Shown piece after piece: positions 1 through 46,325 of a stretch of DNA of 49,650 nt (position 1 is its first letter; each line of letters starts with the position of its first letter). The notes under the pieces are model-generated. The model saw only the letters and a list, made by a program, of their open reading frames with translations. It ran no database searches and was not told where the DNA came from. The stretch is from Nautiliaceae bacterium (GTDB lineage: Bacteria > Campylobacterota > Campylobacteria > Campylobacterales > Nautiliaceae), in assembly GCA_027062985.1 (NCBI GenBank), contig JAMOSR010000019.1, positions 1 through 49,650 of the forward strand, in the 5' to 3' direction. Position numbers and translations under genes: made by a program.

Positions 1-220
1 TTTCTTTCCCGTCAACGATTAAACTCTCATCAGTATAATCAACACTTGCCGGAAATCTTCCATGAACAGAATCAAATTTTAGCATATAAGCCAAATCTTC
101 CGGTGTTCCGCTTCCTCCGTTTGCTACGGTAATTTCTATATTTTCAGGTTTTGTCTGAACATAATGCCATAAAACCATTTTTCCTATTCTTCCAAGTCCG
201 TTTATTGCTACTTTTGCCAT
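1..220 (-). CDS. gap: Type I glyceraldehyde-3-phosphate dehydrogenase, 5' part (runs off window)
   Basis: Manual translation from ATG at 220: MAKVAINGLGRIGKMVLWHY...LAYMLKFDSVHGRF, with the GAPDH NAD-binding INGxGRIG and FDSVHG motifs. TGnTATAAT lies on the minus strand at 244-252. Confidence 0.93.
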   Translation of the reverse strand, partial: MAKVAINGLGRIGKMVLWHYVQTKPENIEITVANGGSGTPEDLAYMLKFDSVHGRFPASVDYTDESLIVDGKE

Positions 221-322
221 TGTATTTCCCCTTTTTTTATAAAATTATATCAAAAAAGAAAAAACAGATATAATAAGGATGTTTGACGACCAGGGCTGTT
301 TCATGCTGAAAAAATGTAAATA

Positions 323-369
323 ATACCAATCCCCAAAATAAATCAAACATTTATTTTGGGGATTGGTAT
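323..369. repeat. Perfect 21-bp inverted repeat with 5-nt loop (TACCAATCC family, copy A)
   Basis: ATACCAATCCCCAAAATAAAT (323-343), CAAAC loop, ATTTATTTTGGGGATTGGTAT (349-369). Confidence 0.95.
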
Positions 370-435
370 AATGAGATTGAATTTCTAAACTGAAAGTTGT
401 ATAATATAATTTTAACTATTTTTAAAGGAGAAAAA

Positions 436-2700
436 ATGAAAAAGGCTTTGCTTATTTCTCTTGTGGCAGTTTATTCTCTGGCTGATTGTTTAAGTTGTCA
501 TAAAGGTATTGAAAATATTAAAGACCCAAATTCTCCTATGATGAAGCAAATTGCTGCTTTATCTAAAAGCATGGGAGATAAGAACAATTGCGTGTTTTGT
601 CATGGTGGAAATCCAAAAGCAACTACTGCAAAAGAGGCTCATGTTCCTCCCAAAAATCATCCTGGTGGTTTAAAAGTGTTCGCGCCTGACCCTGGTAGCA
701 GGTATGTAGTAAAAAATACTTGTGGAATGTGTCATATGGATACGGTTAAGAACTTGGAAAAATCGTTAATGACAACGGAAGCTGGAAAAATTCAAGGAAA
801 TTTAATCGCTTTTGGGGTGCAAAAAGAGAGAAAAGCGATGTATGGAAACTTTGATGTAAAAGATGATGATGGATTTACACCTGCTTGGGGTACTTGCACT
901 TATAAAGAGTATATGAAATATCTGACTAAAAAATATCCGGACAATTTCGTTAAAAAGTTAAAAGCCCTTCCAGAAGCAGCAAAAGATATTGATGATGTTA
1001 AAGGTAAATCAAAAGAAGAGTTAATAAAACTAGCGGCAATTGCATATACAAGAAGTGACTGTTTAAGATGTCATGTTGGCGTAAAAGGAAGACAAGGCAG
1101 AGGCGATTATAGAGGAATGGGGTGTAGTGCATGTCATATTCCGTATTCAAATGAAGGCATTTATGAGGGGAATGATCCTACAATCAGCAAAAAAGTTAAA
1201 GGTAAGTTGCTGGTCCATACAATGCAAGGAAGCAGAAAGAGTAAAGTGTATATTCCTTCAACAGGAAAAACTTATAGCGGAATTGATGTTGAAACATGTA
1301 ATTCTTGTCATAATAGAGGAAAGAGAATTGGTGTGTCGTATACAGGCCTTATGGAATCCGCATATATGTCGCCATTTCAAGAAGGAGGCAAATCTCAGCC
1401 TAAACTTCATGGAAAAAGGTATTTGCATATAGCTGCTGATGTTCATTATAAGGCCGGAATGACTTGTCAAGACTGTCATACTTCTATCGACATGCATGGA
1501 GATGGGAATATTCACGGCACGACATTAGCGCAAGTTGAGATTGAGTGTCAAGATTGTCATGGAACTCCTAATAAATATCCTTGGGAATTACCAATAGGAG
1601 CTGGAGAGAAAAGTTTTAATAAAGGTTATAAAAAAGCAAGAGGTGTTACTAAAAAATTACCAAATTGGATGAAATATGGAACTGTTTATAATCCTGAAGA
1701 CGGTTATATATTAACAGCTAGGGGAAATCCTTTTGGAAATGTAATTAAACGAGGAAATGATGTAATTGTCCATTTGGCAAACGGAAAAGATTTAAAAGTT
1801 CCAGTACTTAAAAATTTAGCACCTAATTTTAATGCAAAAGCAAGGGTGGCAATGGTGGATGTTGCGTCTCATATGAAAAAAATGGAGTGTTATTCTTGTC
1901 ATGCTACCTGGGCACCTCAATGTTATGGTTGTCATGTAAAAGTAGATATGAGAGATAAAAAGACTGACTGGCTTGCAAGTGCTCTACCGTTAAAAAATGG
2001 ATTGACTTGGGAGAGTATAAAAAAATATAAAAAACTTCAAGGAAAAGCTAAAGAGACAAGGAGTTATCTACGCTGGGAAGATCCAATCTTAGGAATTAAT
2101 GGAGAAGGAATGATTTCACCGATTATTCCTGGGTGTCAAGTAACATATACAATAATTGGACCAGATGGTAAGACAGTTACTCTTAACGTTCAAACAAAAG
2201 TAAAAGATAATGGAAATATCGTTGCAGCAACTGATATAGCACCTGCTCAACCGCATACAGTTCAAAAGGAGGCAAGAAGTTGCGAGAGCTGTCATACAAA
2301 TCCGAAAACTCTTGGATATGGAACTAATGATGGAGCTTTTTTAAATCACCAAAATCAAAATTTAGTTTTTGATATAAAAGATAAAGATGGAAATATTGCA
2401 GTAAAAAATGCAACAACTCAAATAGCTGCAATTCCTGGAATGAATTATGATTGGACTAAAGTTGTTGATAGAAATGGCAAACAACTTCAATTGGTCGGCT
2501 CTCACTGGCCTGATTCAAGACCTCTTGATAAAGAGATTAGAGATAAAATGGAAAAAACAGGAACTTGTCTTGGATGCCACTCTCAAATGAGAATAAAAGC
2601 TCTATGGCAAAAAGTTAATAAACATCCTGGTATATTAACTAATAAAGACCATCAAGAAGTTATGAAAAAAGCCTTAAAAGCGTTGGCAAAAGAAAAATAA
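436..2700 (+). CDS. Secreted dodecaheme c-type cytochrome, function unknown
   Basis: 12 CxxCH motifs counted (CLSCH, CVFCH, CGMCH, CLRCH, CSACH, CNSCH, CQDCH x2, CYSCH, CYGCH, CESCH, CLGCH). AAGGAG RBS precedes ATG 436. Sec signal MKKALLISLVAVYSLA. Confidence 0.92.
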   Translation: MKKALLISLVAVYSLADCLSCHKGIENIKDPNSPMMKQIAALSKSMGDKNNCVFCHGGNPKATTAKEAHVPPKNHPGGLKVFAPDPGSRYVVKNTCGMCHMDTVKNLEKSLMTTEAGKIQGNLIAFGVQKERKAMYGNFDVKDDDGFTPAWGTCTYKEYMKYLTKKYPDNFVKKLKALPEAAKDIDDVKGKSKEELIKLAAIAYTRSDCLRCHVGVKGRQGRGDYRGMGCSACHIPYSNEGIYEGNDPTISKKVKGKLLVHTMQGSRKSKVYIPSTGKTYSGIDVETCNSCHNRGKRIGVSYTGLMESAYMSPFQEGGKSQPKLHGKRYLHIAADVHYKAGMTCQDCHTSIDMHGDGNIHGTTLAQVEIECQDCHGTPNKYPWELPIGAGEKSFNKGYKKARGVTKKLPNWMKYGTVYNPEDGYILTARGNPFGNVIKRGNDVIVHLANGKDLKVPVLKNLAPNFNAKARVAMVDVASHMKKMECYSCHATWAPQCYGCHVKVDMRDKKTDWLASALPLKNGLTWESIKKYKKLQGKAKETRSYLRWEDPILGINGEGMISPIIPGCQVTYTIIGPDGKTVTLNVQTKVKDNGNIVAATDIAPAQPHTVQKEARSCESCHTNPKTLGYGTNDGAFLNHQNQNLVFDIKDKDGNIAVKNATTQIAAIPGMNYDWTKVVDRNGKQLQLVGSHWPDSRPLDKEIRDKMEKTGTCLGCHSQMRIKALWQKVNKHPGILTNKDHQEVMKKALKALAKEK

Positions 2701-2737
2701 CTCTTTTTCTTCTTTTGCCAATTTGAAAAAATATATG

Positions 2738-2834
2738 ATTATACCAATCCCAATTTTAAAGTTTGTGCACCATTTCTTTTTCCTGTTTTTCCATTAAAAA
2801 TAGATGTTTTATTTGTTTTGAGGATTGGTATAAT
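2738..2834. mobile_element. MITE-like element with TACCAATCC termini (copy B)
   Basis: 13-bp perfect terminal IR ATTATACCAATCC / GGATTGGTATAAT. The right arm at 2811-2831 matches 349-369 at 19/21 nt. Confidence 0.7.
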
Positions 2835-2857
2835 TTGTAAAAAAAAATAAATTATAG

Positions 2858-2939
2858 TATAATATCGCCTCAAAATTAAAAAACGCCTCCTTGCTCCAAG
2901 CAAATGGACACTGGGGCTAAAAAGCCAAAAGGAGATTTA
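2858..2939 (+). promoter_or_regulatory. rpsF promoter and probable S6:S18 autogenous leader RNA
   Basis: TATAAT at 2858-2863. CTCCTT (2887-2892) can pair with the RBS AAGGAG (2929-2934), enclosing a small hairpin (GGCT/AGCC). This is the usual position of the S6:S18 leader. Confidence 0.65.
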
Positions 2940-3275
2940 ATGAGCTTAAGACATTACGAAACGATGATTATCGTAAAGCCGACTCTTACAGATGAAGAAA
3001 AAGCGGCAATTATCGAAAACGTTAAAAAAATCATTACTGATTTTAAAGGTGAAGTGGTAGCGGTAGATAATATAGGTGTTAGAGAATTGGCTTATCCTAT
3101 TCAAAAGTTTGAAAGAGGACATTATTATATAGTTTATTATAAAGCGCCAGCCGAGGCTGTACTTGAACTTGAAAGACAACTTAGATATAACGAAGATGTA
3201 CTTAGATTTATGACAGTTAAATACGAAACCAAAAGAGATATTAAACGCTGGGAAGAGATGGCGAAAAATGTTTAA
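2940..3275 (+). CDS. rpsF: 30S ribosomal protein S6
   Basis: RHYETMIIVKP...G.RELAYPI.K...GHY motifs. RBS precedes ATG 2940. Part of the rpsF-ssb-rpsR gene order. Confidence 0.97.
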   Translation: MSLRHYETMIIVKPTLTDEEKAAIIENVKKIITDFKGEVVAVDNIGVRELAYPIQKFERGHYYIVYYKAPAEAVLELERQLRYNEDVLRFMTVKYETKRDIKRWEEMAKNV

Positions 3276-3738
3276 CAAAGTTATTCTCATCGGTAATTTA
3301 ACCCGCGACGTGGAGCTTAGATACACTCCAAACGGGACTGCTATTGCTAAGTTCGGACTTGCGACAAACAGAACATATAAAGACAATTTAACCGGTGAGA
3401 ATAAGCAAGAGGTAATGTTTATAGATATTACTGTTTTTGGCAGAAGTGCTGAAATTGCCAATCAATATCTGGCAAAGGGAAGAAGAGTTTTAATAGAAGG
3501 GAGACTTGTATTCGACCAGTGGGTTGACCAAAGCGGACAAAAACGCTCAAAACATTCTGTGGTAGCTGAAAAAGTTCAGTTTATGGATTCAAAATCCAGC
3601 GTGGGAGAGAGCGGATATAATGCCGGTGGATATACAAACCCTTCTCAGCCGGCTCCTAAGCCTCAGATGCAACAACCGACACAACAAAATAACAATGTGC
3701 CTTCAATCGATATCGATGAAGATGAAATACCATTTTAA
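3268..3738 (+). CDS. ssb: Single-stranded DNA-binding protein
   Basis: NKVILIGNLTRDVELRY N-terminus and acidic DEIPF tail. Confidence 0.98.
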   Translation: MFNKVILIGNLTRDVELRYTPNGTAIAKFGLATNRTYKDNLTGENKQEVMFIDITVFGRSAEIANQYLAKGRRVLIEGRLVFDQWVDQSGQKRSKHSVVAEKVQFMDSKSSVGESGYNAGGYTNPSQPAPKPQMQQPTQQNNNVPSIDIDEDEIPF

Positions 3739-25040: not shown

Positions 25041-25189
25041 GGAACTGACTAAATACGCTCAACAAGAGAGCAAATTTTTAAACATGTCCTAAAAGCTAAA
25101 AAGTGCAAACCGCTACGCTTTAGGTGCACTTTTTTAACGCTTTTATTACATTAAAATTTACAATTGTTTTACTTTATTTAGTCAGTGCC
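25041..25189. mobile_element. 149-bp MITE with IS1595-like ends and 8-bp target duplication
   Basis: 15-bp TIR with 1 mismatch (GGAACTGACTAAATA / TATTTAGTCAGTGCC). Direct repeat CAAACTTA at 25033-25040 and 25190-25197. Confidence 0.92.
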
Positions 25190-25544: not shown

Positions 25545-27077
25545 TTATTCGTGAGTAACAACAGGCATTGGAACTTCGTTTGCCAATGCTTTTTTAGGGT
25601 CTCCGTATTTTTTAAGCATTTTCATTCTGTAATCATAAATATCTTTCATTTCTCTGATATCTTGCATTACTTGGAATACACCATGCCAGTGAGCATAATC
25701 CGGGCTTCCCATTGCTGCACCATGTCTGAATCTTCTACCTTCATGATGCCATAGATAGTAGTATAGTTTGAAGAACGGATCGCTCCATACGTCTGATTTG
25801 ATTAAACCTTTCTTTTTAAGGTCAGCCATCATTTTGTTTGCAAATGATTTATATTGATTGTAAATTTTTACAGCTGCGTCAACTCTTTGGAAAAAGTTGT
25901 TTGTAAATGTTGCTTGGTGACAAGCCATACAAACTTTTTTCATATCAGCTCTTGCAGCTTCTGGTCCGTTAGGGTTACCTGCTTTGGCGTTACCTCTTAT
26001 TACAGTGTTGGCGTTGATTTTTCCTCCACCTTTCCAGAATGCCCATCCGGCTGTTTCATGTCCACCAGTTCTTAAGAAACTGTCCGGTGCCCAAAGGTTC
26101 CATTTAAGTCTAAGTGATACGTTGTGAGTAGCTTTTAGACCATTGATTCCACTCATATGACAAGTAAAACATGTACCAGCTCTTAGAGTTTTGCCTGGAA
26201 TTTGTTCACCAGTTTCGAAGTTGTAATCTTCTTCGTTTGTTTCGAAAATATGTCCATGAACACTTGATTCGAACACTTCTTTCATTGGATGGTCAGGACC
26301 TAAGTGACAGTTGTTACAGCTCATAGGATGTCTTGCTTCAGCTGCGCTGAATTTATGTCTGCTGTGACAGCTTAAGCAGTTTGATACCCCACCGTCTGGA
26401 TAAAGCGCTGCAATACCGTCGTTTGGCCAAGTTGTTGCGTCAGGTCTACCTTGAGAATCTAATTTAATTGTAGTACCGTGACATTGGATACAAATATTAG
26501 CTACGTTCAAATCAGCAGTTCTTGGATTTTTTTCATTTGCTTGGAATACAGGACCGTCAGTTCTGATTCCTTTTTCCATAGCTTTACCGTCAACTAGGTA
26601 AGATTTGTTAGCACCTTTTAAGCTTTCATAATGGTATGCAAGTTTTGTCATTAGGTAACCGTGTTTGTTTTTAGGAGTTGCCAGCCATTGAGCCGCACCT
26701 CTACTGTGTCCAGAATTCATATATTCTGTTACTTCTTTTGCGTGACATTTAGCACAAGTTACAGAAGATACCGCGATTTGAACTGTCCAGTTGCTTCCTT
26801 GCATTGGGTGAGCTTTGAAAGCAGTTGGGTAATCTTTAGGAACTACGTGACATTCCACACATCCTACACCAGCTTTTGCGTGTTTAGAATGTTGCCAGTC
26901 AGCAACAATTCCAGGGTCAGTTGTTTTGTGACACATTAAACATTGATCGTTACTTACACCTTGTGGGTGGAAGTTTTTAAGTTTTTGATAGTTTGGGTTT
27001 GAATCTAAGCTGTTTGCTGCAAACGCTAAACTTCCGATTGCTGCAACGCTTAGTCCTGCACTAAGTACTTTTTTCAT
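25545..27077 (-). CDS. hao: Octaheme hydroxylamine oxidoreductase-like protein (epsilon-Hao)
   Basis: 8 CxxCH motifs and a signal peptide. HAO-family motifs CHSRH.FS...AR.P..C..CHLGPDHP and WHHEGRR.RHGAAM..PDYAHWHG. Confidence 0.9.
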   Translation of the reverse strand: MKKVLSAGLSVAAIGSLAFAANSLDSNPNYQKLKNFHPQGVSNDQCLMCHKTTDPGIVADWQHSKHAKAGVGCVECHVVPKDYPTAFKAHPMQGSNWTVQIAVSSVTCAKCHAKEVTEYMNSGHSRGAAQWLATPKNKHGYLMTKLAYHYESLKGANKSYLVDGKAMEKGIRTDGPVFQANEKNPRTADLNVANICIQCHGTTIKLDSQGRPDATTWPNDGIAALYPDGGVSNCLSCHSRHKFSAAEARHPMSCNNCHLGPDHPMKEVFESSVHGHIFETNEEDYNFETGEQIPGKTLRAGTCFTCHMSGINGLKATHNVSLRLKWNLWAPDSFLRTGGHETAGWAFWKGGGKINANTVIRGNAKAGNPNGPEAARADMKKVCMACHQATFTNNFFQRVDAAVKIYNQYKSFANKMMADLKKKGLIKSDVWSDPFFKLYYYLWHHEGRRFRHGAAMGSPDYAHWHGVFQVMQDIREMKDIYDYRMKMLKKYGDPKKALANEVPMPVVTHE

Positions 27078-27114
27078 TTCTACTCCTTTTTGTTTAGGAC
27101 TTTTAGCTCCCTAA

Positions 27115-27147
27115 ATTGTACAAAAAAAAAGTGTTAGAAAAGTGCTT
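27115..27147 (-). promoter_or_regulatory. hao promoter: RCACTT direct repeat (11-bp period) plus -10 TACAAT
   Basis: Minus strand AAGCACTTTTCTAACACTTTTTTTTTGTACAAT. Same geometry as 38912-38944. Confidence 0.7.
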
Positions 27148-27170
27148 ATGAAGAAAAAAGGGAGAAAATT

Positions 27171-27515
27171 TTAATATTTTCCTTTAAGAGAACCGAAATA
27201 TTTAACTTCTTCGGCTTTTTTATCTGTATTGAGCTCTTCTACCGTAGCGTTTAAATCGATTTCTTCTTTCATTTTTTCAAGTTCTTCTTCGCAATAGCTC
27301 ATATGCATATCAGCACTAATAATATAAGGCATCTGTTCTATTTGAGTTAGTTTTTCAATTTCCTCTTCAACGTTTTCACCTTCTATCGTAATAATTATTA
27401 CGCCTTTTTGTTTATCTCCGAAATGAACGTCGCAAAGAGGTGATTCTTGAAGATTTAACCAAACTGCGTCGTAATGTTCAGGCTTTGTTTTTACTATAAT
27501 ACTCGAAATATTCAT
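27171..27515 (-). CDS. napD: NapA chaperone NapD
   Basis: MNISSIIV...G.IIITIEGE motif. Last gene of the nap operon. Confidence 0.92.
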   Translation of the reverse strand: MNISSIIVKTKPEHYDAVWLNLQESPLCDVHFGDKQKGVIIITIEGENVEEEIEKLTQIEQMPYIISADMHMSYCEEELEKMKEEIDLNATVEELNTDKKAEEVKYFGSLKGKY

Positions 27516-27524
27516 GTGACTCCT

Positions 27525-28478
27525 TTATTTGATTTTCCATATAATTATTTCTGCCGGTGAAAAACTTAAAATTTCTTTTTCATTTAAATATTTCATTCCG
27601 TTTAAAGCCATGGTGTGGCCTTTTAGAAGTAATTTAGGTTTATTAAATATAGAATAAACCATAATATCGTTTGCCTCGTCATATTGAATTGCAAAAGCGT
27701 CCAATGTTGGAGAGAGTGCGGTTGCGTAAGGTAAAAATTTTGCTTTTAGTCTGTTTTTTGCATATCCGCTATTTATATCATAAATTCCGACTCTCATATC
27801 ACTGCTTCCGTTTATTACAAGATTTTTAATAAAATCCAAACTAAGAGTTTTATCTTTATTGAATCCTTTTATTTCTTTTAATTTTTTCCCGTTAATTACA
27901 TCTATTATTTTAACGGCTCCGCTTTCGTCTCCTACAGCGGCTTTTGTTTTTGTTTCGTTTAATACATAAGTGGAAAATACATAATTTCCTGCTTGGATTT
28001 TATATAGCCATTTTTTTGATTTTAAATCATAAAGGGCCATTTCATCGCTTAATAAGGCGAAAAATATTTGTGAATTGTTAATAAATCTTGCTTTCATTAA
28101 TGTCTGTTTTGTAGTAAATAAGTGAGATAATTTATGATTTTTTAAATCGAATAAGAAGAATTCTCTAACAGCGTTTTCCCCTTCGGCAAGAATTAAAAGT
28201 GTTTTGTTATCAGGGGAAATATCAAGGGAGTAAATAGGCATAGCTATTAAATCTCCCATAAAATCATGTATTTTAGGTAAAGAAAACTTATAAATATCTT
28301 TTAATGTTTTAAAATCTCTTATTACAATTTCTCCATTTTCAAGACCGGAGATTATATATGTGTTATTGTATGTAATTTTTGATATGTAATAATTGTATTT
28401 TATAGTCTTGAAAGGAGTCAGCGTTTGATATGCAAAAACCATTATACTTATAATAACTATTAAAAAAATCTTTTTCAT
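27525..28478 (-). CDS. napL: Periplasmic WD40-like protein NapL
   Basis: Signal peptide, LPKIHDFMGD, GDESG, LKGH beta-propeller features. Lies between napF and napD. Confidence 0.85.
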   Translation of the reverse strand: MKKIFLIVIISIMVFAYQTLTPFKTIKYNYYISKITYNNTYIISGLENGEIVIRDFKTLKDIYKFSLPKIHDFMGDLIAMPIYSLDISPDNKTLLILAEGENAVREFFLFDLKNHKLSHLFTTKQTLMKARFINNSQIFFALLSDEMALYDLKSKKWLYKIQAGNYVFSTYVLNETKTKAAVGDESGAVKIIDVINGKKLKEIKGFNKDKTLSLDFIKNLVINGSSDMRVGIYDINSGYAKNRLKAKFLPYATALSPTLDAFAIQYDEANDIMVYSIFNKPKLLLKGHTMALNGMKYLNEKEILSFSPAEIIIWKIK

Positions 28479-28487
28479 TAAAACTCC

Positions 28488-28964
28488 TTATAAAATTTTA
28501 ATTTCTATAGCGTTGTTTGGACATACGCTTATACAAAAACCACAGCCTGTACATTTTTCCAAATCTATCGCAGGGTTAAATGTCCCATTATATATTATAG
28601 CAGATTCTTCACATATATCTTGACAGGAAAAACAGATTGTTTGATTCCATGCAAGACATTTTGACGGATTAATAATCATTTGAGCGTCTAATTTATTTTT
28701 TTTATTTTTTATCGACAATACTTCGTAAGGACAGGCTAAGGCGCATTCGTCACAAAGAGTACATCCGTTTTGTCCAAATTTAATTATAGGAAAATTTTCT
28801 TCTATATAAATAATTTTTTCCTTGCATGCATTCAAACAATCTTTTGTTTCACATTCTATACATTTTATAAAAGATTCTTTTGAAGAATAATATGGGGGAA
28901 ATAAGAAAGACTTAAAAGGAGAGGAAACTCTCCTAAAAAAATTTCTTTTTGATTTGTCTACCAA
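28488..28964 (-). CDS. napF: Ferredoxin-type protein NapF
   Basis: Several CxxCxxCxxxCP clusters and an RNFF N-terminus. Confidence 0.88.
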   Translation of the reverse strand: MVDKSKRNFFRRVSSPFKSFLFPPYYSSKESFIKCIECETKDCLNACKEKIIYIEENFPIIKFGQNGCTLCDECALACPYEVLSIKNKKNKLDAQMIINPSKCLAWNQTICFSCQDICEESAIIYNGTFNPAIDLEKCTGCGFCISVCPNNAIEIKIL

Positions 28965-29455
28965 TTTTTTAGGCTTTCAAATTTGTTTTCCACAACAGAG
29001 TTTACTTTTGCCTGAGGAGTGTGACAAGTTGTACAGAAATATCTGCTTCCTGCAACTTTTGGAGCTTTTTTGTTTCCTCCGAAATTGTCAACAAAATGGT
29101 CTGCCGGCATAGGCGTAACTCCTAAAGCCTTGGCTGTTGAAGGCATATGGCAGTTTAAGCACATATTTTTGCCTACTTTAATAGGAACCATACCTTTTAC
29201 GCTGTGAGGAATCATAGGAGGTGCGTCTGAAAAAGATTTTTTAAACGGTTTTACTTTTCCAGGGATTGGAGCTGGCGCATGATATTCCACTACAGGCAGA
29301 TTCTCACTTCCAGCATTTAAATCTGTTTTTCTAACTCCAGTAATTTCTACTGTTTTATTTGAGACTTTATTATTTTGAGTCTGAGATTGTGTAGTACATC
29401 CGGCAAATACTAATACTGCCGCTGCTATTGAATTAACTATTAGCAGTTTTTTCAT
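28958..29455 (-). CDS. napB: Diheme cytochrome c NapB (lipoprotein-type)
   Basis: APPMIPHS, CLNCH, RYFCTTCHTPQ. FAGC lipobox. Confidence 0.95.
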   Translation of the reverse strand: MKKLLIVNSIAAAVLVFAGCTTQSQTQNNKVSNKTVEITGVRKTDLNAGSENLPVVEYHAPAPIPGKVKPFKKSFSDAPPMIPHSVKGMVPIKVGKNMCLNCHMPSTAKALGVTPMPADHFVDNFGGNKKAPKVAGSRYFCTTCHTPQAKVNSVVENKFESLKNW

Positions 29456-30284
29456 GATTTTCTCCTTTTTTTTGTTTTATTAAATATCTTAGAGTGAATT
29501 TTAAAGCGTTATCGTTGCATACTTCAATGCATCTTCCGCAGTTAGTACATTCAATTCCGGAAATGTAATCGCTTTTTTTATGAATTACAGGAGAGAGAAC
29601 CTGATTCTCGGGACATACGATTAAACATTCTCCGCAATTTGTACAGTTATCTTTTTCATGATAAACCCTTACGATGTTTTTTGAGCCTATAATGCTGTAC
29701 ATAACTCCAACCGGGCATATATGCCCGCACCATCCGTTTTTAAGTACAAAAGTGTCAAAAAGAAAAATTACCAAAAGCCATACCCAGCCAAATCCAAGCG
29801 TAAAGGCTATACCTCTTGTAAATATTCCGATTGGGCTTATGAATTCAAATGCCGCCGCTCCTACAAGCGTTGAAACTACGAGCATAATTACTAAAAAGAA
29901 ATATCTGAATTTTTTTATTTTTTGTGCACTGATTAAATTATCTTTTTCATGATGCGTTTTTCTTCTAACCCATGCGGCTAAATCAGTTATCATATTAACC
30001 GGGCATACCCAGCTGCAATAAGCTCTTCCTCCTATTAATCCGTAAAAAAAGAGTATGATTAAAACGCCTATAATCAGGTCGGTACTGATAACTGCTCCTG
30101 CAAACGCCATTTGAAGTACCGCAAAAGGGTCGGCTAACGGTATAGTATCAAAAAGTTTGGAAAAGCTTAAGTTTCCGGCTAATATTTTCCATCCGTAATA
30201 ATTTGCCGTAAAATATAAAAATAATATTAAAATTTGGGTTATACGTCTTAGGATGAGATATCTGTTTTTAATTATTGATCCCAT
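29433..30284 (-). CDS. napH: Quinol dehydrogenase membrane subunit NapH
   Basis: GGRAYCSWVCP, GWCGHICP and two C-terminal 4Fe-4S motifs. Confidence 0.95.
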   Translation of the reverse strand: MGSIIKNRYLILRRITQILILFLYFTANYYGWKILAGNLSFSKLFDTIPLADPFAVLQMAFAGAVISTDLIIGVLIILFFYGLIGGRAYCSWVCPVNMITDLAAWVRRKTHHEKDNLISAQKIKKFRYFFLVIMLVVSTLVGAAAFEFISPIGIFTRGIAFTLGFGWVWLLVIFLFDTFVLKNGWCGHICPVGVMYSIIGSKNIVRVYHEKDNCTNCGECLIVCPENQVLSPVIHKKSDYISGIECTNCGRCIEVCNDNALKFTLRYLIKQKKGENHEKTANS

Positions 30285-31093
30285 GTTACACCTTGGTTAA
30301 GATTTTCAACAGCACTTTTTTTGCTTCTTCCCGTTACGGTAGTTGTTTTGGTAGAAGCTTTTTGAACTCTTTGTTCATCTTTTTTATCCCATCCTTTAAC
30401 GTATCTATCACCCGCTTTTCCTAAAAATACTTCTCTTGGGAATATTTTTATAGCCGCTTTTTCCGTAACGCAAGCCATTTCACACATTCCGCAACCCGTA
30501 CAAAACTCTTCATGTACAACAGGGATACGATAAGCGTGTTTTCCCGTTCTTTCGTTTTTTTTCCATTCTATGGTAATTGCTTTGTCCATTTCAGGACATG
30601 CCCTATAACAAGCGGTACATTGCAAGCCCCAAAAAGCTATGCAGCTGCTTGGGTCTATTACCGCGACGCCCATTTTAGCGTAGTCAATTGCTACTTCCCC
30701 TTTATCATTTTTACACATATCAGGAGTAAGAGCGCCTGTTGGACAGGCGTACATACAAGGTATGTCGTCACACATAAAACAAGGTCCGGTTCGTGCAATA
30801 AAATAAGGAGTCCCTATAGGAACTTTATCCCCTGGGGCTCCTAGTTTTAAAGTAATTATTTCATTTCCGTCTATAATTACTTTATTATCCCTGTTTTTGC
30901 ATGCTTCAACGCATAACCCGCATCTGATGCAGGTTTTTAAAAAGTCTTCCTCTTTTAACGCTCCTGGAGGGCGAAGAGTCAAAGGTTTATCTTTATTCTC
31001 TTCGACAAACCCCGCAACCACACTGCCGGCTGCTATTGCAGCAGCCGAAGCCTGAGCCATTGAAGTAATAAATGAGCGTCTTTTTGTATCCAT
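30272..31093 (-). CDS. napG: Ferredoxin-type protein NapG
   Basis: Tat-like RR, LRPPGAL, CIRCGLCVEAC, GTPYF, four Cys clusters. Confidence 0.95.
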   Translation of the reverse strand: MDTKRRSFITSMAQASAAAIAAGSVVAGFVEENKDKPLTLRPPGALKEEDFLKTCIRCGLCVEACKNRDNKVIIDGNEIITLKLGAPGDKVPIGTPYFIARTGPCFMCDDIPCMYACPTGALTPDMCKNDKGEVAIDYAKMGVAVIDPSSCIAFWGLQCTACYRACPEMDKAITIEWKKNERTGKHAYRIPVVHEEFCTGCGMCEMACVTEKAAIKIFPREVFLGKAGDRYVKGWDKKDEQRVQKASTKTTTVTGRSKKSAVENLNQGVTWDQ

Positions 31094-31101
31094 TAAAATC
31101 C

Positions 31102-33918
31102 TTACGCTTTATAAATTTTAACTGCCGCTTTTTTGTAATCTGTTTCTTTACTCATTGGACATGTTGCGTCTAAACATACTTTGTTGATGAGTACTTTTTC
31201 ATCAAACCATGGAACGAATACCAATCCTCTTGGAGGTTTGTTTCTTCCTCTTGTTTCCACTCTTGCTTTTACTTTTCCTCTTCTACTTTCTATTACTACT
31301 AAATCAAATCTGTTTAGACCTAACTCTTTAGCGTCTTTAGGGTTCATATAACATAAAGCTTCAGGCATTGCTCTGTAAAGCTCAGGTACTCTCATAGTCA
31401 TAGTTCCTGTATGCCAGTGCTCAAGCACCCTTCCTGTACATAGCCAGAAATTGTATCCTTTTGTATCATATTTAGGGTCTTCAGGGTGAACCATAAACGG
31501 TCTCCAGAAAATTTTCGCTTTATTTTTAAGGTTAATTTTACCTTTGCTAGCAATAGGACCTTTTAAGTCACCTCTTTTAATTGTTTTTAGTAACGGTCCG
31601 TAGAATGCAAATTTTTCACCAGGTTTTGCATGTTTTCTTGCATATGGGTCGTATTCTACGTTAAATCTCCATTTTGTTTCTTTTCCGTTGACTACAGGCC
31701 ATCTAAGTCCTCTTACTTTATGATATGTATCAAAATCAGCTAAGTCGTGTGCATGTCCTAGACCAAATTTTCTATATTCTTCCCAAAGTGCCTTATGTAC
31801 GAAGAATCCGTATCCTTTCCATGGTTTTCCGTCGCTTCCTAAAATTTCTCTACCGTCCCCTTCAGCTTCAGTGTTTTTATGCATTTTTCCTGTTTGAGGG
31901 TTTTTGGCAATTGGATCTGGCCATGGGAAGTTTTTGCGATATTCAGGTCTGTTGTATAGAACATCAAACAGTGTCATTTCAGGGTCGTATCCCATAGCTT
32001 TTGCTTTATCAAGTACGTTTGGAAGTTTTGCCTGAGGCCATTCTTTCCAAACTTCTTTTAATTTAAATCTTTTTGAAAATTCCATAATTGTCCAAAGGTC
32101 CGGCATTGCTTCACCCGGAGGTGTTACCTGTTGTCTCCAGTGCTGAGTTCTTCTCTCAGCGTTTCCGTAAGCTCCCCATTTTTCATAAATCATAGCTACA
32201 GGTAAAATTAAGTCCGCAACTCTTGCAGATACTCCAGGATATGCTTCATTAACAACAATGAAATTATCCATAGTTCTTGCTGCTTTTAACCAGTGATTTG
32301 CATTAGCGGTATTTTGCCATGGGTTGTTTACGTGTACCCATACCCATTTGATTTTACCGTCTTCAATGTCTCTCATGATTTTTACAAAGTGGCTTCCAAC
32401 TTTTGGATTTAGTGTACCTTCAGGTAATTTCCACATTTTTTCGGTAATTTTTCTGTGTTTAGGATTTGCTACAAGCATATCTGCCGGAAGTCTGTGTGCG
32501 AATGTACCAACTTCTCTTGCCGTACCACATGCACTTGGCTGTCCTGTAAGTGAGAATGCACCGCTTCCAGGAAGTGACTGTTTTCCAAGCAATAGGTGAA
32601 TCATATAAATTTGTTCGTTAACCCAGCTTCCTCTAACATGCTGGTTGAATCCCATGGTCCAGAAAGATACTATTTTTCTATTTGGGTCACAGTAAAGGTC
32701 TGCTAGTTTTTGAAGTTTTCTTTTGAAACTATCAAGTGATTCGTCTGGGTCACCTTTAGCTACTTTAGCTACATAATCAAGAGTATAAGGTTCAACTCCT
32801 TTTTTGAAATCTTCAAAGCTTATTTCCCAATGCCAGAAAGGTTTTTTACCGGCTGCATGTTTCATTTCCATTTCATCGCCGGCTTTCCATTTTCCAATTG
32901 GTGATAAAGCTACAGCTTCTTCATCAGTTACTTTTTTTACCACTTGTTTAACAACGGTATCTTTTTCTTTTTCCGTTACGTTAGGATTATTAGGGTTTCT
33001 CATACCGTATCCGGTATCGGCATGTCCTGTCGCAAAGATGGTATGTTTTTTAACAAAATCCCAATTTACGGCATTTCTTTTGATAATTTCTCTTGCTATG
33101 TAGTTCATAATAGCAAGGTCTGCGTTAGGTCTGAAAATGATTTCCATATCCGCAAGGTTAGAACATCTGTTTCTGTATGTTGATAAGTTTACTACATAAT
33201 ATTTATCAGGGTTGTTAAGTTTCGCATCTGATACTCTTGACCAAAGAATAGGATGCATTTCCGCCATATTAGCACCCCAGGTGATGACCGTATCTGTAAT
33301 TTCGATATCGTCATAACATCCTGCAGGTTCGTCAATACCGAATGTCTGATAAAAACCTACAACTGCACTTGCCATACAGTGTCTTGCATTTGGGTCGATG
33401 TTGTTACTTCTCCATCCGGCCTTTATTAATTTTACGGCTGCGTATCCTTCTTGGATTGTATATTGTCCAGAACCGAATATCGCAACTCCTGTAGGTCCTA
33501 GTTCGTTATAATATTTTTTAAATTGTTTTTCCATTTCATCAAACGCTCTTTTCCAAGAAACAGGTCTGAATTTTCCGTTTTTGTCAAATTCACCTTTATC
33601 GTTCATTCTTAGAAGCGGTTGAGTAAGTCTGTCAGCACCGTACATAATTTTTGCGTTGAAGTAACCTTTAATACAGTTAATACCTCTGTTTACTGGACTT
33701 TCAGGGTCACCTTTTACCGCTACGATTTTATCGTCTTTTACCGCTACCATAATACCGCATCCGGTACCACAGAAACGACATACGGCTTTATCCCATTGCC
33801 AACCGGCTTGAGATTCTTTTGCTGCAGCTTCAGCTTCTTGTGGAATGGTTATTCCAGCTGCGCTTGCAGCCGCTACTGCTGCTGTTGTTTTTAAAAATTC
33901 TCTTCTGTTCATTGACAT
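31102..33918 (-). CDS. napA: Periplasmic nitrate reductase catalytic subunit
   Basis: Tat signal [45 protein letters not shown] precedes ATG 33918. Confidence 0.98.
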
Positions 33919-34014
33919 ATGCTCTCCTTTTTGAGATTTTACGCTTTTTTTACGTAATAATGATACTACTTTTCTGGAGTTTTGTGGTAAAATTTTTAAA
34001 AATTTTATAAAAAA

Positions 34015-34047
34015 AAGCACTTTATTGGCACTTTTTAATTTTATTTT
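34015..34047. promoter_or_regulatory. RCACTT direct repeat in the divergent napA/modA region
   Basis: AAGCACTTTATTGGCACTTT with half-sites at 34017 and 34028. Confidence 0.65.
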
Positions 34048-38944: not shown

Positions 38945-38968
38945 CCTCCTAAAAAAAAAGGTTTGAGA

Positions 38969-39526
38969 ATGAAAAAATCTACTCTTGGAGCGTTAATAGT
39001 AGGAGCTGTTGTAGGGCTTGGTATTTCTTATGTTGCAGCTGTTATGGTGGATATTACAGGACAGCCTAAATTTTGTGCCAACTGTCATACGATGAAACCT
39101 ATGATTGAAAGTTTTCATTACAGTGTGCACGGAGGAAATAACCCTCAAGGATTTGCCGTTCATCACTGTACGGACTGTCATCTTCCGCACAACTCTTTAA
39201 TCGGGTATTTGTTTGCAAAAGGGTTAAGTGGGGCAAGAGATGCAATGGCTCAGTTTGGTGTTCTTAAAATGGTTGATTTTAAAGAAAATTTCTGGGAAAT
39301 GAAACATTATACATATGACAGCGGATGTTTGCACTGTCACCATGGAATAAAAGAGCCTGAAAAAGCAATCGGACTTGCAGATAATGTAAAAGAATTGCAT
39401 CAAAAATATTATTGGGATGCTAAAAATTCAGGAAAAGATATCAGCTGTGTAAATTGTCACAACGACTATACAATGAGTCATTTTGCTCATCCTAACTTGT
39501 TGGAAACCCTTCATACTGCGGAATAA
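38969..39526 (+). CDS. NapC/NirT-family tetraheme quinol dehydrogenase (cM552/CycB-like)
   Basis: N-terminal TM anchor, CANCHTM (CxxCHxM), CTDCHLP, CLHCH, CVNCH. Confidence 0.92.
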   Translation: MKKSTLGALIVGAVVGLGISYVAAVMVDITGQPKFCANCHTMKPMIESFHYSVHGGNNPQGFAVHHCTDCHLPHNSLIGYLFAKGLSGARDAMAQFGVLKMVDFKENFWEMKHYTYDSGCLHCHHGIKEPEKAIGLADNVKELHQKYYWDAKNSGKDISCVNCHNDYTMSHFAHPNLLETLHTAE

Positions 39527-39609
39527 TTTTCAATTTTCTTCTTTTTTTCTCCTTAATATATATTTAATGTAAAATTTTTGTTACAATACCTCAAAAAAAA
39601 GGTGTTGAA

Positions 39610-40029
39610 ATGAAAAAAGTGCTGCTTTTATTGGTAGGTATTTTTCTGTTTGCTTTTGAATGGAGCGGAAAAGTAAATTGGGCGATGAGTTATGATTTGG
39701 CAAAGTCGATTGCCGCTAAAGAAAATAAACTGGTAATGGTGGATATTGCTCTAACAAACTGTCCTCCATGCAGGTATTTAGCGACTAAAGTTTACACGGA
39801 TGATAAAGTTGCGAATTATATAAACAGTAATTTCGTACCGGTGTTTTATCTAGCGGACCAAGATAATATCCCTACGGAGGTTCGAAACTATTTTACAGGT
39901 TCTACTCCGACGATTCTTTTCATAAAACCAAACGGAGAGCTTGTTTATTCTTTTATAGGTGCAAGACCTCCTAGTGCTTTTTTAAAAATTTTACAGGATG
40001 TTAACAGTAAATATAAGGTTTCTAAATGA
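39610..40029 (+). CDS. Periplasmic thioredoxin-fold protein
   Basis: Signal peptide, CPPC and TPT cis-Pro. Precedes ccsBA. Confidence 0.88.
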   Translation: MKKVLLLLVGIFLFAFEWSGKVNWAMSYDLAKSIAAKENKLVMVDIALTNCPPCRYLATKVYTDDKVANYINSNFVPVFYLADQDNIPTEVRNYFTGSTPTILFIKPNGELVYSFIGARPPSAFLKILQDVNSKYKVSK

Positions 40030-42518
40030 AAGAGGTGTTAAAAAGAATTTATAAAATTTTCTTTTCGCTTGAAGTTGCGGTTGTGCTTTCTTTGTTGTTT
40101 ATAGCCGGTCAGATGTATGCTACCTTAGGATTTGGTACAATGCAGGAAGCGTGGAAATATGTTTATGAAACAAAATGGTTTGAAGCTATTATGTGGCTTC
40201 TTGGCATTAATCTTATTGGAGTTATGTTTAAATACAAAACCTATAAAAAACCACCTGTTTTTATTTTGCATCTTTCCATCATAATTATTTTAATAGGAGC
40301 GGCTGTTACAAGATATTTCGGATACGAGGGAACTCTTCATTTAAGAAACGGAGAAACCAAATCGGTAATTATGATAGAAAAAAGCAAGGCAAATCCTGCA
40401 GACGTTTATCCGAAAGAACTTGGCTTTAAAGTAAAACTTGATAAGTTTGTAATGAGAAAATATCCGGGAAGTATGCAGCCAAGTTCTTATGACAGTTATG
40501 TTACCGTTATAGATGAAAAAAATAATAAAAAATTTCAGTATCATATTTATATGAACCATATTTTGGTTTATGGAGGATATAGATTTTATCAGGCAAGTTA
40601 CGATATGGACGAACAGGGCAGTATTCTTTCGGTAAATCATGACCCTGGTATGTGGATTACTTATTTTGGCTATCTTTTACTTGCGATAGGATTTTTATGG
40701 AGTATGATTTATAAAAAGAGCAGATTTATGTTAACGGTTAAAAAATTAAAACAAAGCGGGCTGTTTGCTTTTTTCATGGTTATGTTTTTAGGTTACGGTG
40801 CGAATTTATATGCTTTTGATTTAAAAGAGTATGCTCAAAAATCAAAAGCCGTTGCCGATGAGTGGAGCAGGGTGCTGGTTCAAAAAAGCGGTAGGGTTGA
40901 GCCTATGGATACCCTTGATTTGGATATAGTCCATAAGCTTACTTTAAAATCAAAAATGCATGGTCTTGATTACAATCAAATAGTTGCCGGAATGGTGGCC
41001 TATCCTAATGAATTTCAAAAAATTCCTCTTATTTATGTAGGACATCCGGCAATAAGAAAACTTCTTGGAATTAATGGAAAATACGCTCCTTATAACGCTT
41101 TTTTCTTTCCAAACGGAGATTTTAAGTTTTCAAAAGAGATTGATACGGCATTTAAAACACCTGATAAAGACAGAACCATTTTGCAAAGAGAATGGATAAA
41201 AATTAATGAAAGAGTGTATGTAGCATTTGAGGTTTATACGGCTAAAATATTTAAAATTTTTCCTACCCCTAATGCAAAAAGTATGAATTACAGATGGTTT
41301 AGTATAGATGATATTCAACAAGCCATTAAAATGGGAATGATGAACCCTATTGACGCTCAGTTTTATTTTAATCTTTTTAGGGATTTGGCTTTTGGAGTAA
41401 AAAATTATGACGTGAAACTGGAACGCGAAACCCGTCTTAAAATATATGAACTTCAAAAAAGTTATTCAGCTGAAATATTACCTAGCCCTAGCCGAATAAA
41501 ATGGGAAATTACTTATAACAGAATGCAGATATTTCCTAAACTTATAGGAATATATACGACTATCGGTCTTCTTGCTATAGTTTTAGGGTTTATTGAGATT
41601 TTAAAAGAGAAAAGATTTAGAAAACTTGAGATTTCTTTAGTCATTATTGGATGGCTTGCCATTTTAATTCATACGGCAAATATGCTTCTTAGATGGTATG
41701 TCGCAGGGCATGCTCCTTGGTCTGATGCGTATGAATCTATTATATTTATTGCATGGGGTGCTGCTTTTGCAAGTGTATTGTTTTTTAGACGTTCAATGCT
41801 TGCCCTTGGTGCCGGGTTGTTTGTTGCGGGTATGTTTATGATGGTGGCTCATTTAAACAATATTAATCCTCAAATTACCAATCTGGTGCCGGTTTTAAAA
41901 AGTTACTGGCTGCTTATTCATGTTGCCGTAATTACTTCAAGTTACGGATTTTTAAGTGTTGGGGCGATGTTGGGGCTGCTTAATTTAATTTTGTTTGCTT
42001 TAAGAAAATACAGACCTCTTGACAATCAGATAAAACAGCTTAATAATATTATTTATATAGCTCTTTATATCGGTTTGGCCCTTCTTAGTATCGGTACGTT
42101 TCTTGGAGGTGTTTGGGCAAATGAAAGCTGGGGTAGATATTGGTCTTGGGACCCTAAAGAGACTTGGAGTCTTATTTCTATGGTAGTTTATGCCCTTGTT
42201 ATTCATACTAAGATGATTCCTAAAATGAGAGGGGAGTTTATTTTTTCTTTATTGGCGTTTTTATCGTTTTTCTTTATTTTATTTACTTATTTTGGAGTCA
42301 ATTTCTATATTGCTCAGGGACTTCACAGTTACGGACAGGGAGTTGCCGACGGTTACGGATGGGTAAATATTTTATTTGCCGGAATGGGGGCATGGTTTGG
42401 AGTGTTTATTTTTGGAATTGGAAGTGCCATTATGCAAAAAATTTCAAAACCGGTTGAGCTTGTTACCGATAACGATAAAAACGATTATCATCCGGAGTTT
42501 AAAAAGGAGAAAAAATGA
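40026..42518 (+). CDS. ccsA: System II cytochrome c synthase CcsBA fusion
   Basis: ResB-like N-terminus (RYFGYEG, RFYQASY), GHAPWS, LKSYWL.IHV, WANESWGRYWSWDPKETW, GLHSY. Confidence 0.95.
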   Translation: MKEVLKRIYKIFFSLEVAVVLSLLFIAGQMYATLGFGTMQEAWKYVYETKWFEAIMWLLGINLIGVMFKYKTYKKPPVFILHLSIIIILIGAAVTRYFGYEGTLHLRNGETKSVIMIEKSKANPADVYPKELGFKVKLDKFVMRKYPGSMQPSSYDSYVTVIDEKNNKKFQYHIYMNHILVYGGYRFYQASYDMDEQGSILSVNHDPGMWITYFGYLLLAIGFLWSMIYKKSRFMLTVKKLKQSGLFAFFMVMFLGYGANLYAFDLKEYAQKSKAVADEWSRVLVQKSGRVEPMDTLDLDIVHKLTLKSKMHGLDYNQIVAGMVAYPNEFQKIPLIYVGHPAIRKLLGINGKYAPYNAFFFPNGDFKFSKEIDTAFKTPDKDRTILQREWIKINERVYVAFEVYTAKIFKIFPTPNAKSMNYRWFSIDDIQQAIKMGMMNPIDAQFYFNLFRDLAFGVKNYDVKLERETRLKIYELQKSYSAEILPSPSRIKWEITYNRMQIFPKLIGIYTTIGLLAIVLGFIEILKEKRFRKLEISLVIIGWLAILIHTANMLLRWYVAGHAPWSDAYESIIFIAWGAAFASVLFFRRSMLALGAGLFVAGMFMMVAHLNNINPQITNLVPVLKSYWLLIHVAVITSSYGFLSVGAMLGLLNLILFALRKYRPLDNQIKQLNNIIYIALYIGLALLSIGTFLGGVWANESWGRYWSWDPKETWSLISMVVYALVIHTKMIPKMRGEFIFSLLAFLSFFFILFTYFGVNFYIAQGLHSYGQGVADGYGWVNILFAGMGAWFGVFIFGIGSAIMQKISKPVELVTDNDKNDYHPEFKKEKK

Positions 42519-42985
42519 TTTGTGATTTATGCGGTAGTAATAAAAATGTAAGTGTTTTTAAAGTGGAGCCTAAAGATGAATATGTAAATTTATGTGAAGT
42601 TTGCAAAAGTCAAATTGAAAGCGGAAATCTTGACGAAAATCATTTTCAGTGTCTAAATGATTCTATGTGGAGCGAAAAAAGCGCTGTTAAGGTTTTAACT
42701 TACAGACTTTTAAAAAAGCTCGGACGGGCAGACTTAATGGATATGATGTATCTTGAACCTGAAGAATTGGCATGGGCTCAGGCTGAAGCCGAAGAAAAGT
42801 TTGATAGTGTAGGCAATAAATTAAACAACGGCGATAACATTATGGTTATAAAAGATTTGCCTGTAAAAGGCGGAGATACTATAAAAAGAGGAACGGTATT
42901 TAAAAATATACGCTTAGGGGATACCCCGGGGCATATTTTGGCTAAAAATATTTATATAAAAACGGAGTTCATAAAAAAGGTTTAG
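42515..42985 (+). CDS. PhnA-domain zinc-ribbon protein
   Basis: CDLC/CEVC, H.QCLNDSMWSE, DS.G..L..GD....IKDL.VKG. Confidence 0.85.
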   Translation: MICDLCGSNKNVSVFKVEPKDEYVNLCEVCKSQIESGNLDENHFQCLNDSMWSEKSAVKVLTYRLLKKLGRADLMDMMYLEPEELAWAQAEAEEKFDSVGNKLNNGDNIMVIKDLPVKGGDTIKRGTVFKNIRLGDTPGHILAKNIYIKTEFIKKV

Positions 42986-42987
42986 TA

Positions 42988-44250: not shown

Positions 44251-44274
44251 GGAAAAAATAAAAAAGGAATAAAA

Positions 44275-45315
44275 ATGGGAAAAATTTTTATTGATGCATG
44301 TTTTGGAAAAGAGACTCCATATACGCCTGTGTGGATGATGAGACAGGCTGGAAGATATCTGCCGGAGTATATGGAAGTTAGACGTAAAGCCGGAGATTTT
44401 CTTACAATGACAAAAAACCCGGAAATGGTGGCAGAAGTTACCCTTCAGCCGATTGAAATTTTGGATGTGGATGCAGCGATTTTGTTTAGTGATATTTTAA
44501 ATCTTCCAATGGAGATGGGATTGCCTTTGAAGTTCGAAAAAGGAGTAGGGCCTGTTTTTGAAAAAACTATTTCTTTTGAAGAGGATATTGACGCTTTAGA
44601 CCCAAAAGCCGATGAAAAAATTTCTTACGTATATGAAGGAGTCAGAAAAATAAAAGAAAGACTGCCTGAAAATAAAGCCCTTATAGGTTTTGCCGGAAGT
44701 CCTTGGACTATTGCTACATATATGGTGGAAGGAAAAGGCTCAAAGCAGTACGCAAAAATTAAAAAAATGGTTTACGCAAATCCTATGATGATTCATAGAT
44801 TACTAGCATTCAATACAAAAGAGACTATTGAATACCTATCAAAACAGATTGAAGCTGGGGCTGATGCTGTTATGATTTTTGACAGTTGGGGCGGTGCTCT
44901 TGAGAAGGAGAAGTTTTTTGAATTTTCGTGGAATTATATGAAAGAAATAGCTAAAAAACTTAAAGAAAAATATCCTAATGTACCTGTTATAGGGTTTTCA
45001 AAAGGAGTAGGGCTTTATATGAGCGATATGGATGGAGAGTTTGATGTCATAGGAGTTGACTGGAATACTCCTATGGATTATGCTCTTGGTATATTTAAAG
45101 ATAATTATACCCTTCAGGGAAATATGGACCCTACAAGGCTTTATTCTAAAAGCGCTACAAAAGAAGCTGTTGAAAAGATTGCTGAGATTATGAATGGACA
45201 TAGGCATATATTTAATTTAGGACATGGAATTCTTCCTGACGTGCCTGTAGAAAACGCCAAATTTTTTGTGGATTATGCAAAAGAATATTCTAAAAAATTA
45301 AGGGAGCAAAAATGA
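44275..45315 (+). CDS. hemE: Uroporphyrinogen decarboxylase
   Basis: [31 protein letters not shown]. Confidence 0.98.
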
Positions 45316-46289: not shown

Positions 46290-46291
46290 AA

Positions 46292-46300
46292 TGATATAAT
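46292..46300 (+). promoter_or_regulatory. Extended -10 promoter before hemC
   Basis: TGATATAAT (TGnTATAAT) 25 nt before the ATG. Confidence 0.6.
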
Positions 46301-46325
46301 TTAAATAAAAAATAAAGGGAGATTT

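What the first reader, a model, noticed from the sequence alone, without database searches (positions are those of the whole stretch)
323..2834. Dodecaheme cytochrome gene bracketed by two related inverted-repeat elements: possible MITE-composite cargo unit
Seen: both intergenic flanks of the gene hold an element with ATACCAATCC...GGATTGGTAT ends (323-369 and 2738-2834). The outermost arms (323-343 and 2811-2831) are inverted repeats matching at 19/21 nt and enclose about 2.5 kb with this one gene, between housekeeping gap and rpsF. Copy B has TA on both sides of TACCAATCC...GGATTGGTA, while copy A has AA on the left. Inference: a non-autonomous composite element, possibly TA-targeting (IS630-like), that moved a respiratory gene. 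No transposase is present in the window. By eye the gene seems richer in A/T-ending codons than its neighbours, but I did not quantify this.
Basis: partly seen in the sequence, partly recalled or inferred. Interest (0 to 1): 0.78.

Follow-up and report, generated by a model that had tools for sequence, protein, structure and literature searches.

The report
Imported cytochrome gene between mini-transposons
A 12-heme cytochrome gene that related vent bacteria lack sits between two copies of a small jumping-DNA family, but the left copy differs between strains while the gene stays put, so the copies likely gathered around an imported gene rather than forming an intact mobile package.

Summary
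The repeats are real: A (324-368) and B (2742-2830) belong to a dispersed MITE family (6 loci in this 63%-complete genome) whose TACCAA ends match an IS630 transposase elsewhere in the same genome. The target is a 3-bp TNA (TAA/TTA/TGA/TCA), not TA. The 12-heme gene was found in 0 of 29 family relatives, and gap and rpsF are adjacent in 13 of 26, so it was likely imported. But 324-2830 is not a clean composite insertion. A interrupts a third repeat whose other ~170 bp and 10-bp duplication are missing. Contigs of three runs leave the window at 323 (read as the intact repeat in one) while the gene is present at similar depth. Another strain's protein implies a different element end 33 bp closer. 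B's mismatched flanks also occur in 6 of 15 lone copies, and the family brackets native rplS in a relative. Best reading (0.55): an imported gene whose flanks became MITE sinks, with end-associated deletion. An older composite, later remodelled on the left, remains possible (0.3). No second copy, close donor or excision was seen.

The parts
2..220 (-). 5' end of gap (name recognised by eye), native left neighbour
   Evidence: homologue lies 132-210 bp from rpsF in 13 of 26 relatives
221..249 (.). native gap upstream region; last left-side stretch alignable to relatives
   Evidence: p<=0.03 against shuffles in 10 of 13 relatives; 250-290 not alignable in any of 13
291..323 (+). left 33 bp of a third repeat (MITE-3, CAGGGC ends, about 200 bp, 10-bp target duplication when intact), cut at its internal TAA
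   Evidence: intact 201-bp copy on C141 with a perfect 10-bp repeat; no right end nearby in the window
321..323 (.). TAA target triplet at A's outer end; the same site of MITE-3 holds a MITE-1 copy on C66
324..368 (.). copy A: 45-bp fold-back derivative of MITE-1 made of two left ends; 320-362 is 43/43 identical to the C50 copy
   Evidence: similar stand-alone hairpins in G045 (L198) and L203
364..372 (+). TGnTATAAT extended -10-like motif formed by A's inner end plus target, pointing at the cytochrome (function untested)
377..405 (+). cytochrome's own sigma70-like promoter motif TTGAAT-17-TATAAT (consensus match only)
   Evidence: 12 sites found against 9.9 expected in shuffles
436..2700 (+). 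754-aa, 12-CXXCH multiheme cytochrome c, ExtM-like but below the cut-off; signal peptide judged by eye
2683..2721 (.). 18-nt inverted repeat over the stop codon, possible terminator (not called by the terminator scan)
   Evidence: (I12)
2742..2830 (-). copy B: full-length 89-bp MITE-1 of a divergent subfamily, left end facing rpsF; flanks TTA (2739-2741) and TAA (2831-2833)
2834..2880 (+). native rpsF promoter region (TTGTAA-17-TATAAT at 2835-2863); homology to empty sites resumes here
   Evidence: p<=0.02 in 11 of 13 relatives
2940..3275 (+). rpsF, native right neighbour

Best explanation
The 12-heme cytochrome gene lies between gap and rpsF in this species only and was likely imported by a route that cannot now be read, and the two flanking elements are copies of an IS630-derived MITE family that likely inserted and rearranged independently in the gaps beside it. 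Shown: family membership, a cognate IS630 transposase on C152, TNA targeting, absence of the gene in relatives, and truncation of MITE-3 at A. Inferred: the C152-type transposase acts in trans on TACCAA ends and inserts at TNA sites, which are common in TATAAT-rich promoter gaps. B landed in the roughly 20-bp slot between the cytochrome terminator and the rpsF -35 box, the only harmless place on that side. On the left, a reverse-oriented copy sat just upstream of the cytochrome promoter. A later event (one-ended intramolecular transposition into the TAA of neighbouring MITE-3, or deletion between 13-14-bp repeats of two element ends, or an assembly join) removed the rest of MITE-3 and left the 45-bp hairpin A. 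Element end plus target spells TGGTATAAT, so such insertions may be tolerated or kept because they would supply an extended -10. The protein likely works as a periplasmic electron-transfer cytochrome; its substrate is not known.
For: One-step insertion at 321-323 predicts that MITE-3 continues after 2833; native rpsF promoter DNA follows instead. Contigs that start in unique gap-side DNA leave the window at 323 in 3 of 7 runs laid: X2 (depth 16.3, gene 29-31), X4 (65.6, gene side 67-79), X8 (4.4, gene 4.4-5.1). The X2 loose end there is the MITE-3 continuation. In X2 one contig runs unbroken from 1305 to 3735 through gene, B and rpsF. P0123, 2 residues different from the window protein, has an N-terminal extension that implies a B-like end 33 bp closer to the start codon. 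A and B differ at 5 of 40 positions, and A matches the youngest copies. 6 of 15 lone full-length copies also have unmatched triplets. Two copies bracket native rplS in G045, and two more bracket a carA-like region. No element ends in 85 of 85 homologue loci; the family usually stands alone among unrelated genes. One copy of the gene in G000.
Against: Both gaps of exactly the lineage-specific gene carry the family; random placement gives 0.03 (6 copies) to 0.09 (10 copies) for any single gene, less for a foreign one. Homology to empty sites resumes exactly at B's outer end. The two outer triplets match (TAA/TAA), and A's inner end and B are in direct orientation, as in known MITE composites. 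An element end faces the gene in 4 of 4 runs, so a left-hand copy could be as old as the gene. The G045 controls come from a genome with 21 matches, where bracketing is expected (0.35-0.55). The DNA between intact MITE-3 and the gene in X2/X4/X8 was not seen, and the X4 and X8 letters after 323 were not displayed.
Confidence: 0.55

Rival explanations
1. An older composite: a full-length reverse MITE-1 (A's predecessor) and B bracketed the gene in a donor of the same family, the IS630 transposase moved the unit to the TAA beside the rpsF promoter, and the left end was remodelled later.
For: Right border exactly at B's outer end; B's flanks unmatched (TTA/TAA); cognate transposase in the genome; gene found in 0 of 29 relatives; chance of bracketing only 3-9%; element end upstream of the gene in 4 of 4 runs; precedent in Acinetobacter (PMC3934969, passages).
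Against: No left target duplication that can be tied to native DNA; no near-identical donor (next best 83%, then 65% or less); A and B are different subfamilies; unmatched flanks are common in lone copies (6 of 15); only about 20 bp were available for B, so its position is partly forced; whether 2722-2741 is native is inconclusive (p 0.03-0.81).
Confidence: 0.3
2. Homology-anchored integration: incoming DNA carrying the gene and one MITE recombined with a resident MITE copy, with an illegitimate second joint; no transposase step moved the gene.
For: Near-identical MITE-1 copies are shared across genera (G000 and G045), which gives portable homology; the left flank shows deletion rather than clean duplication; MITE-based recombination is described in PMC9330008 (passages).
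Against: Shared homology is short (40-90 bp) and A and B are only about 88% alike; no hybrid element was identified.
Confidence: 0.1
3. One reading: 324-2830 is an intact composite inserted once, with TAA/TAA as its target duplication, and still mobile as such.
For: Outer ends are intact TACCAA termini with matching TAA; a transposase is available.
Against: The left flank is half of MITE-3 and the right flank is native promoter DNA; alleles without A's outer junction coexist with the gene; no same-species excision joint among those listed - the 214-to-2832 joints come from contigs about 12% divergent in gap.
Confidence: 0.05

Closest known systems
MITE-flanked composite elements, e.g. the 439-bp MITE around class 1 integrons in Acinetobacter (PMC3934969; abstract and 12 passages seen)
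   Same: Two non-coding MITE copies in direct orientation around cargo, with no transposase inside.
   Different: There the MITEs are identical and the unit is seen at several sites with fresh 5-bp duplications. Here the copies differ, only one site is known, and the outer flanks do not come from one target.
IS630 family, ISAcma28-like group (L204-L208)
   Same: DDE_3 plus HTH transposase, TACCAAT ends, matched 3-bp TNA repeats in 4 of 5 fetched cyanobacterial relatives.
   Different: Protein identity is only 35-41%. The vent element was seen only in pieces, never with both ends in one contig; A and B are non-coding derivatives.
ISY100 / classical IS630-Tc1-mariner (PMC2170065; abstract and 12 passages seen)
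   Same: Same transposase family; cut-and-paste mechanism assumed by analogy.
   Different: ISY100 duplicates TA almost exclusively; this group is flanked by TAA, TTA, TGA or TCA.
Neisseria Correia (CREE) MITEs (PMC9330008; passages seen)
   Same: Intergenic MITEs whose target repeats resemble a -10 box.
   Different: Different sequence family; promoter activity is not tested here.
ExtM 12-heme cytochrome of the Geobacter extHIJKLMNOPQS cluster (NF040943; PMC5877670, abstract and 12 passages seen)
   Same: 12 hemes; homology over residues 191-631 (E 3.5e-73).
   Different: Score 247 against a cut-off of 800; 754 aa; stands alone with no ext genes beside it.

Membership tests
IS630-derived MITE (A, B) | short, non-coding, terminal inverted repeats | tested here: met
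   45 and 89 bp with TACCAATCC ends
IS630-derived MITE (A, B) | dispersed copies | tested here: met
   6 loci in G000; 21 matches in G045 and 15 in G023 at E<=0.01
IS630-derived MITE (A, B) | ends and target shared with an autonomous element | tested here: met
IS630-derived MITE (A, B) | mobilisation in trans by that transposase | not testable with these tools
   inferred; the C152 copy is cut at the contig end and split into two frames at an A-run
classical TA-targeting IS630 | 2-bp TA duplication | tested here: not met
   33 of 40 left-end rows are preceded by T-N-A, including TGA (5) and TCA (1); TGA/TGA in L157; TCA/TCA in L208
MITE composite transposon | cargo between two ends recognised by one transposase | tested here: met
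MITE composite transposon | outer flanks derive from one target site (empty site restored) | tested here: not met
   left flank is MITE-3, right flank is the native rpsF promoter; an older left junction could not be seen
MITE composite transposon | cargo absent from orthologous sites | tested here: met
   0 of 29 family genomes; empty site in 13 of 26 rpsF loci
MITE composite transposon | unit found at more than one site, or excising | tested here: inconclusive
   one copy in a 63%-complete genome; 0 of 85 homologue loci carry the ends; no same-species joint listed, but contigs drop rare variants
ExtM (NF040943) | score above the curated cut-off | tested here: not met
   246.9 against 800
ExtM (NF040943) | ext gene cluster context | tested here: not met
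   neighbours are gap and rpsF
ISAs1-like MITE (MITE-3) | CAGGGC ends and a long target duplication (family label recalled, from no call) | tested here: inconclusive
   10-bp repeats on C141 (10/10) and L039 (9/10); no transposase sought

The most novel reading that the evidence does not exclude
Sub-100-bp MITEs of a TNA-targeting IS630 group formed a composite that carried a 12-heme respiratory cytochrome, with no solved structural relative, into a vent Nautiliaceae lineage, and their ends keep being re-used in natural populations as portable extended -10 promoters for the imported gene.
Probability: 0.25. Interest if true: 0.55.

Novelty: new member of a known kind. Interest (0 to 1): 0.32.

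Why it matters
If the composite origin held, it would extend MITE-driven cargo transfer from resistance genes to energy metabolism in vent chemolithotrophs. On present evidence the value is smaller. It is a worked case of how two flanking MITEs and a matching 3-bp repeat can mimic a composite. It also defines a Nautiliaceae MITE family with its probable IS630 partner, and shows an IS630 group with 3-bp TNA rather than TA duplications. Four paper searches listed nothing describing that by title or abstract start, but ISAcma28 is an already named element whose database record I could not see.

Tried and rejected
TA target: rejected. B's unmatched flanks as proof of composite movement: rejected, 6 of 15 lone copies are unmatched. 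From the 18 paired rows I dropped B itself, a degenerate second L157 row and a reverse-strand artefact of L198, and re-read L157. Matched flanks among MITE copies alone (9 of 15) are not far above chance, so the 3-bp claim rests on the invariant T-N-A pattern and on the cyanobacterial full copies. Codon usage as evidence of transfer: weak (z -1.8; other respiratory genes in the window are as low or lower at four-fold sites). Tree (quick tree only, 43 of 120 listed homologues): the window protein and P0002 form a 100-support pair on a long stem (0.75), sister to Nitratifractor-, Sulfurospirillum- and Arcobacter-labelled rows, with a long-branch warning; no donor can be named. The 214-to-2832 joints in X1, X3, X8 are sister-species empty sites, not excision. 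In X8 the rpsF-side depth (13-14) exceeds the gene's (about 5), which could mean gene-free cells or other species; not resolved. No full vent IS copy in order-wide, genome or viral scans. No plasmid with a full-length cytochrome homologue. No PDB sequence hit; AlphaFold model pLDDT 73, pTM 0.77, no Foldseek match at E<=0.001; the wider fold search was not run. Neighbour proteins of homologues (TPR, thioredoxin-like, methyltransferase, DUF302) gave no functional lead. Three look-ups of earlier findings returned nothing. Searches on Nautiliaceae transposases and on this cytochrome family listed no paper on either, judged from listings only.

Full report
Setting. The window is contig C19 of G000 (974 kb, 153 contigs, 63% complete). 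A same-genus genome is titled Nautiliaceae (G005's contigs), and the runs holding the locus that have a label are hydrothermal vent metagenomes.

Observation. The two elements, the 19/21 outer match and the 12 CXXCH motifs are as described. Element limits are 324-368 (A) and 2742-2830 (B). The A/T-rich codon impression is real but weak: GC3s 0.178, with 10 of 193 long ORFs lower.

The gene is likely foreign here. It was found in 0 of 29 family genomes but in 92 of 371 other genomes of the order. The best hits are one unnamed 83% protein and then 65% or less. In 13 of 26 relatives gap lies 132-210 bp from rpsF; the other 13 have other neighbours, so the site is variable. Homology to empty sites ends near 249 on the left and resumes at 2834 on the right; 250-290 and 2722-2741 cannot be assigned. 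In 85 homologue loci the gene mostly stands among unrelated genes, and none has the element ends. It is present in all four runs laid over the whole locus. Of 7 listed differences in it, 5 are synonymous (the table was cut), so it is likely maintained by selection. It resembles ExtM but fails the cut-off and has no solved relative by sequence or Foldseek. c-type maturation genes are in the same window. Periplasmic electron transfer is inferred; the substrate is open.

What the elements are. A and B belong to a dispersed family (MITE-1): 6 loci in G000 with none in the reversed control, and many in other genera. G000 carries an IS630 transposase on C152 (PF13358, E 2e-27; HTH_32 on a relative's N-terminal part). 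Its ends begin TACCAA, and the left ends align with the MITE left end. Eight right ends are followed by TAA (5) or TTA (3), and four left ends are preceded by TTA (3) or TAA (1). 33 of 40 MITE left-end rows follow T-N-A. In complete plasmids, 4 of 5 related IS630 elements fetched, including ISAcma28, have TACCAATT ends and matched repeats TTA, TAA, TAA and TCA. The target is therefore 3-bp TNA, unlike ISY100's TA (PMC2170065). A is a fold-back form made of two left ends; similar 45-46-bp hairpins occur alone elsewhere.

Is 324-2830 a composite? In favour: matching outer TAA, the right border at B's end, a cognate transposase, and a chance of only 0.03-0.09 that some single gene is bracketed. 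Against, first: A's left flank (291-323) is the first 33 bp of a third repeat that is about 200 bp long with a 10-bp duplication when intact (C141). Its remainder follows neither A nor B, so the two outer flanks are not one split target. The same TAA of that repeat holds a MITE-1 on C66 with both sides present, so it is a preferred site.

Second, the left junction varies among strains. In 3 of 7 runs laid (X2, X4, X8), contigs from unique gap-side DNA leave the window at 323, at depths of about half to about equal that of the gene; the X2 loose end is the intact-repeat continuation. X3, X5 and X6 run on into A, but X5 and X6 contigs diverge after 343. Gene-side contigs begin at 349 with other letters in front. 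X2 has gene, B and rpsF on one unbroken contig. That gap stays adjacent to the gene in these strains is assumed, not seen. One of these runs may be the window's source.

Third, a conspecific protein (P0123) implies a B-like end 33 bp nearer the start codon. This could be a separate insertion or a deletion between two GTATAAT repeats plus substitutions; only the protein was seen. Fourth, B's unmatched flanks are shared by 6 of 15 lone copies. Fifth, in G045 two copies bracket rplS, still next to trmD, so bracketing does not need cargo movement, although that genome has more copies.

Mechanism. Most likely (0.55) the gene arrived first, or independently, and its two gaps became sinks for TNA-targeting MITEs, with a later end-associated deletion, or an assembly join, producing A. 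End plus target gives TGGTATAAT at A's inner end and at both ends of B, which may explain tolerance; this is untested. An older composite with a remodelled left end (0.3) fits all data except that its left target site has not been seen. Homology-anchored integration is given 0.1 and the intact unit as first proposed 0.05.

Novelty. MITE composites are known (PMC3934969), as are MITE targets that resemble -10 boxes (PMC9330008). This is a new MITE family member of a known kind beside a likely imported gene. The 3-bp target of this IS630 group is the most transferable side result; it may already be on record for ISAcma28. No supplements were read. Names marked as recalled (gap, carA, nusB, ISAs1-like) come from no family search.

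Noticed in passing
L204, L205, L206, L208; G000:C152 2096-2993: An IS630 group with TACCAA ends duplicates 3-bp TNA rather than TA, both in vent Campylobacterota and in cyanobacterial plasmids. The C152 copy is split into two frames at an A-run, as in a programmed frameshift.
   Followed up: yes
window 25044-25186 and 49278-49310: A second palindromic repeat family (about 150 bp, ACTGACTAAATA ends, TA on both sides), often nested inside MITE-1 (C30, C66, L037, L039, L162).
   Followed up: partly
window 291-323 and about 49348-49386; C141 5090-5290: A third repeat family (about 200 bp, CAGGGC ends, 10-bp duplication); the three families nest in one another.
   Followed up: partly
L039 2032-3401 (G045:C77): rplS is bracketed by two MITE-1 copies, with a MITE-3 copy also between rplS and trmD.
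   Followed up: yes
L152, L153: An 82-83% identical transposase fragment lies in a MAG titled Ca. Gracilibacteria: transfer or mis-binning.
   Followed up: no
L203 3001-3046: An A-like 46-bp hairpin near the end of a 9.7-kb IMG/VR contig.
   Followed up: partly
window 25545-34020 and 38963-48568: Respiratory cluster: a multiheme cytochrome with PF13447 (510 aa, four-fold GC3 0.08), a molybdopterin oxidoreductase, a NapC/NirT protein, a ResB-CcsA fusion and, by eye, heme-synthesis genes.
   Followed up: partly
L005, L069, L079, L089, L091, L095, L099, L128: Homologues of the cytochrome sit directly after a nusB-like gene (name recalled) in 13 of 85 loci, again inside housekeeping runs; the family is widespread, yet has no solved structure.
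   Followed up: partly
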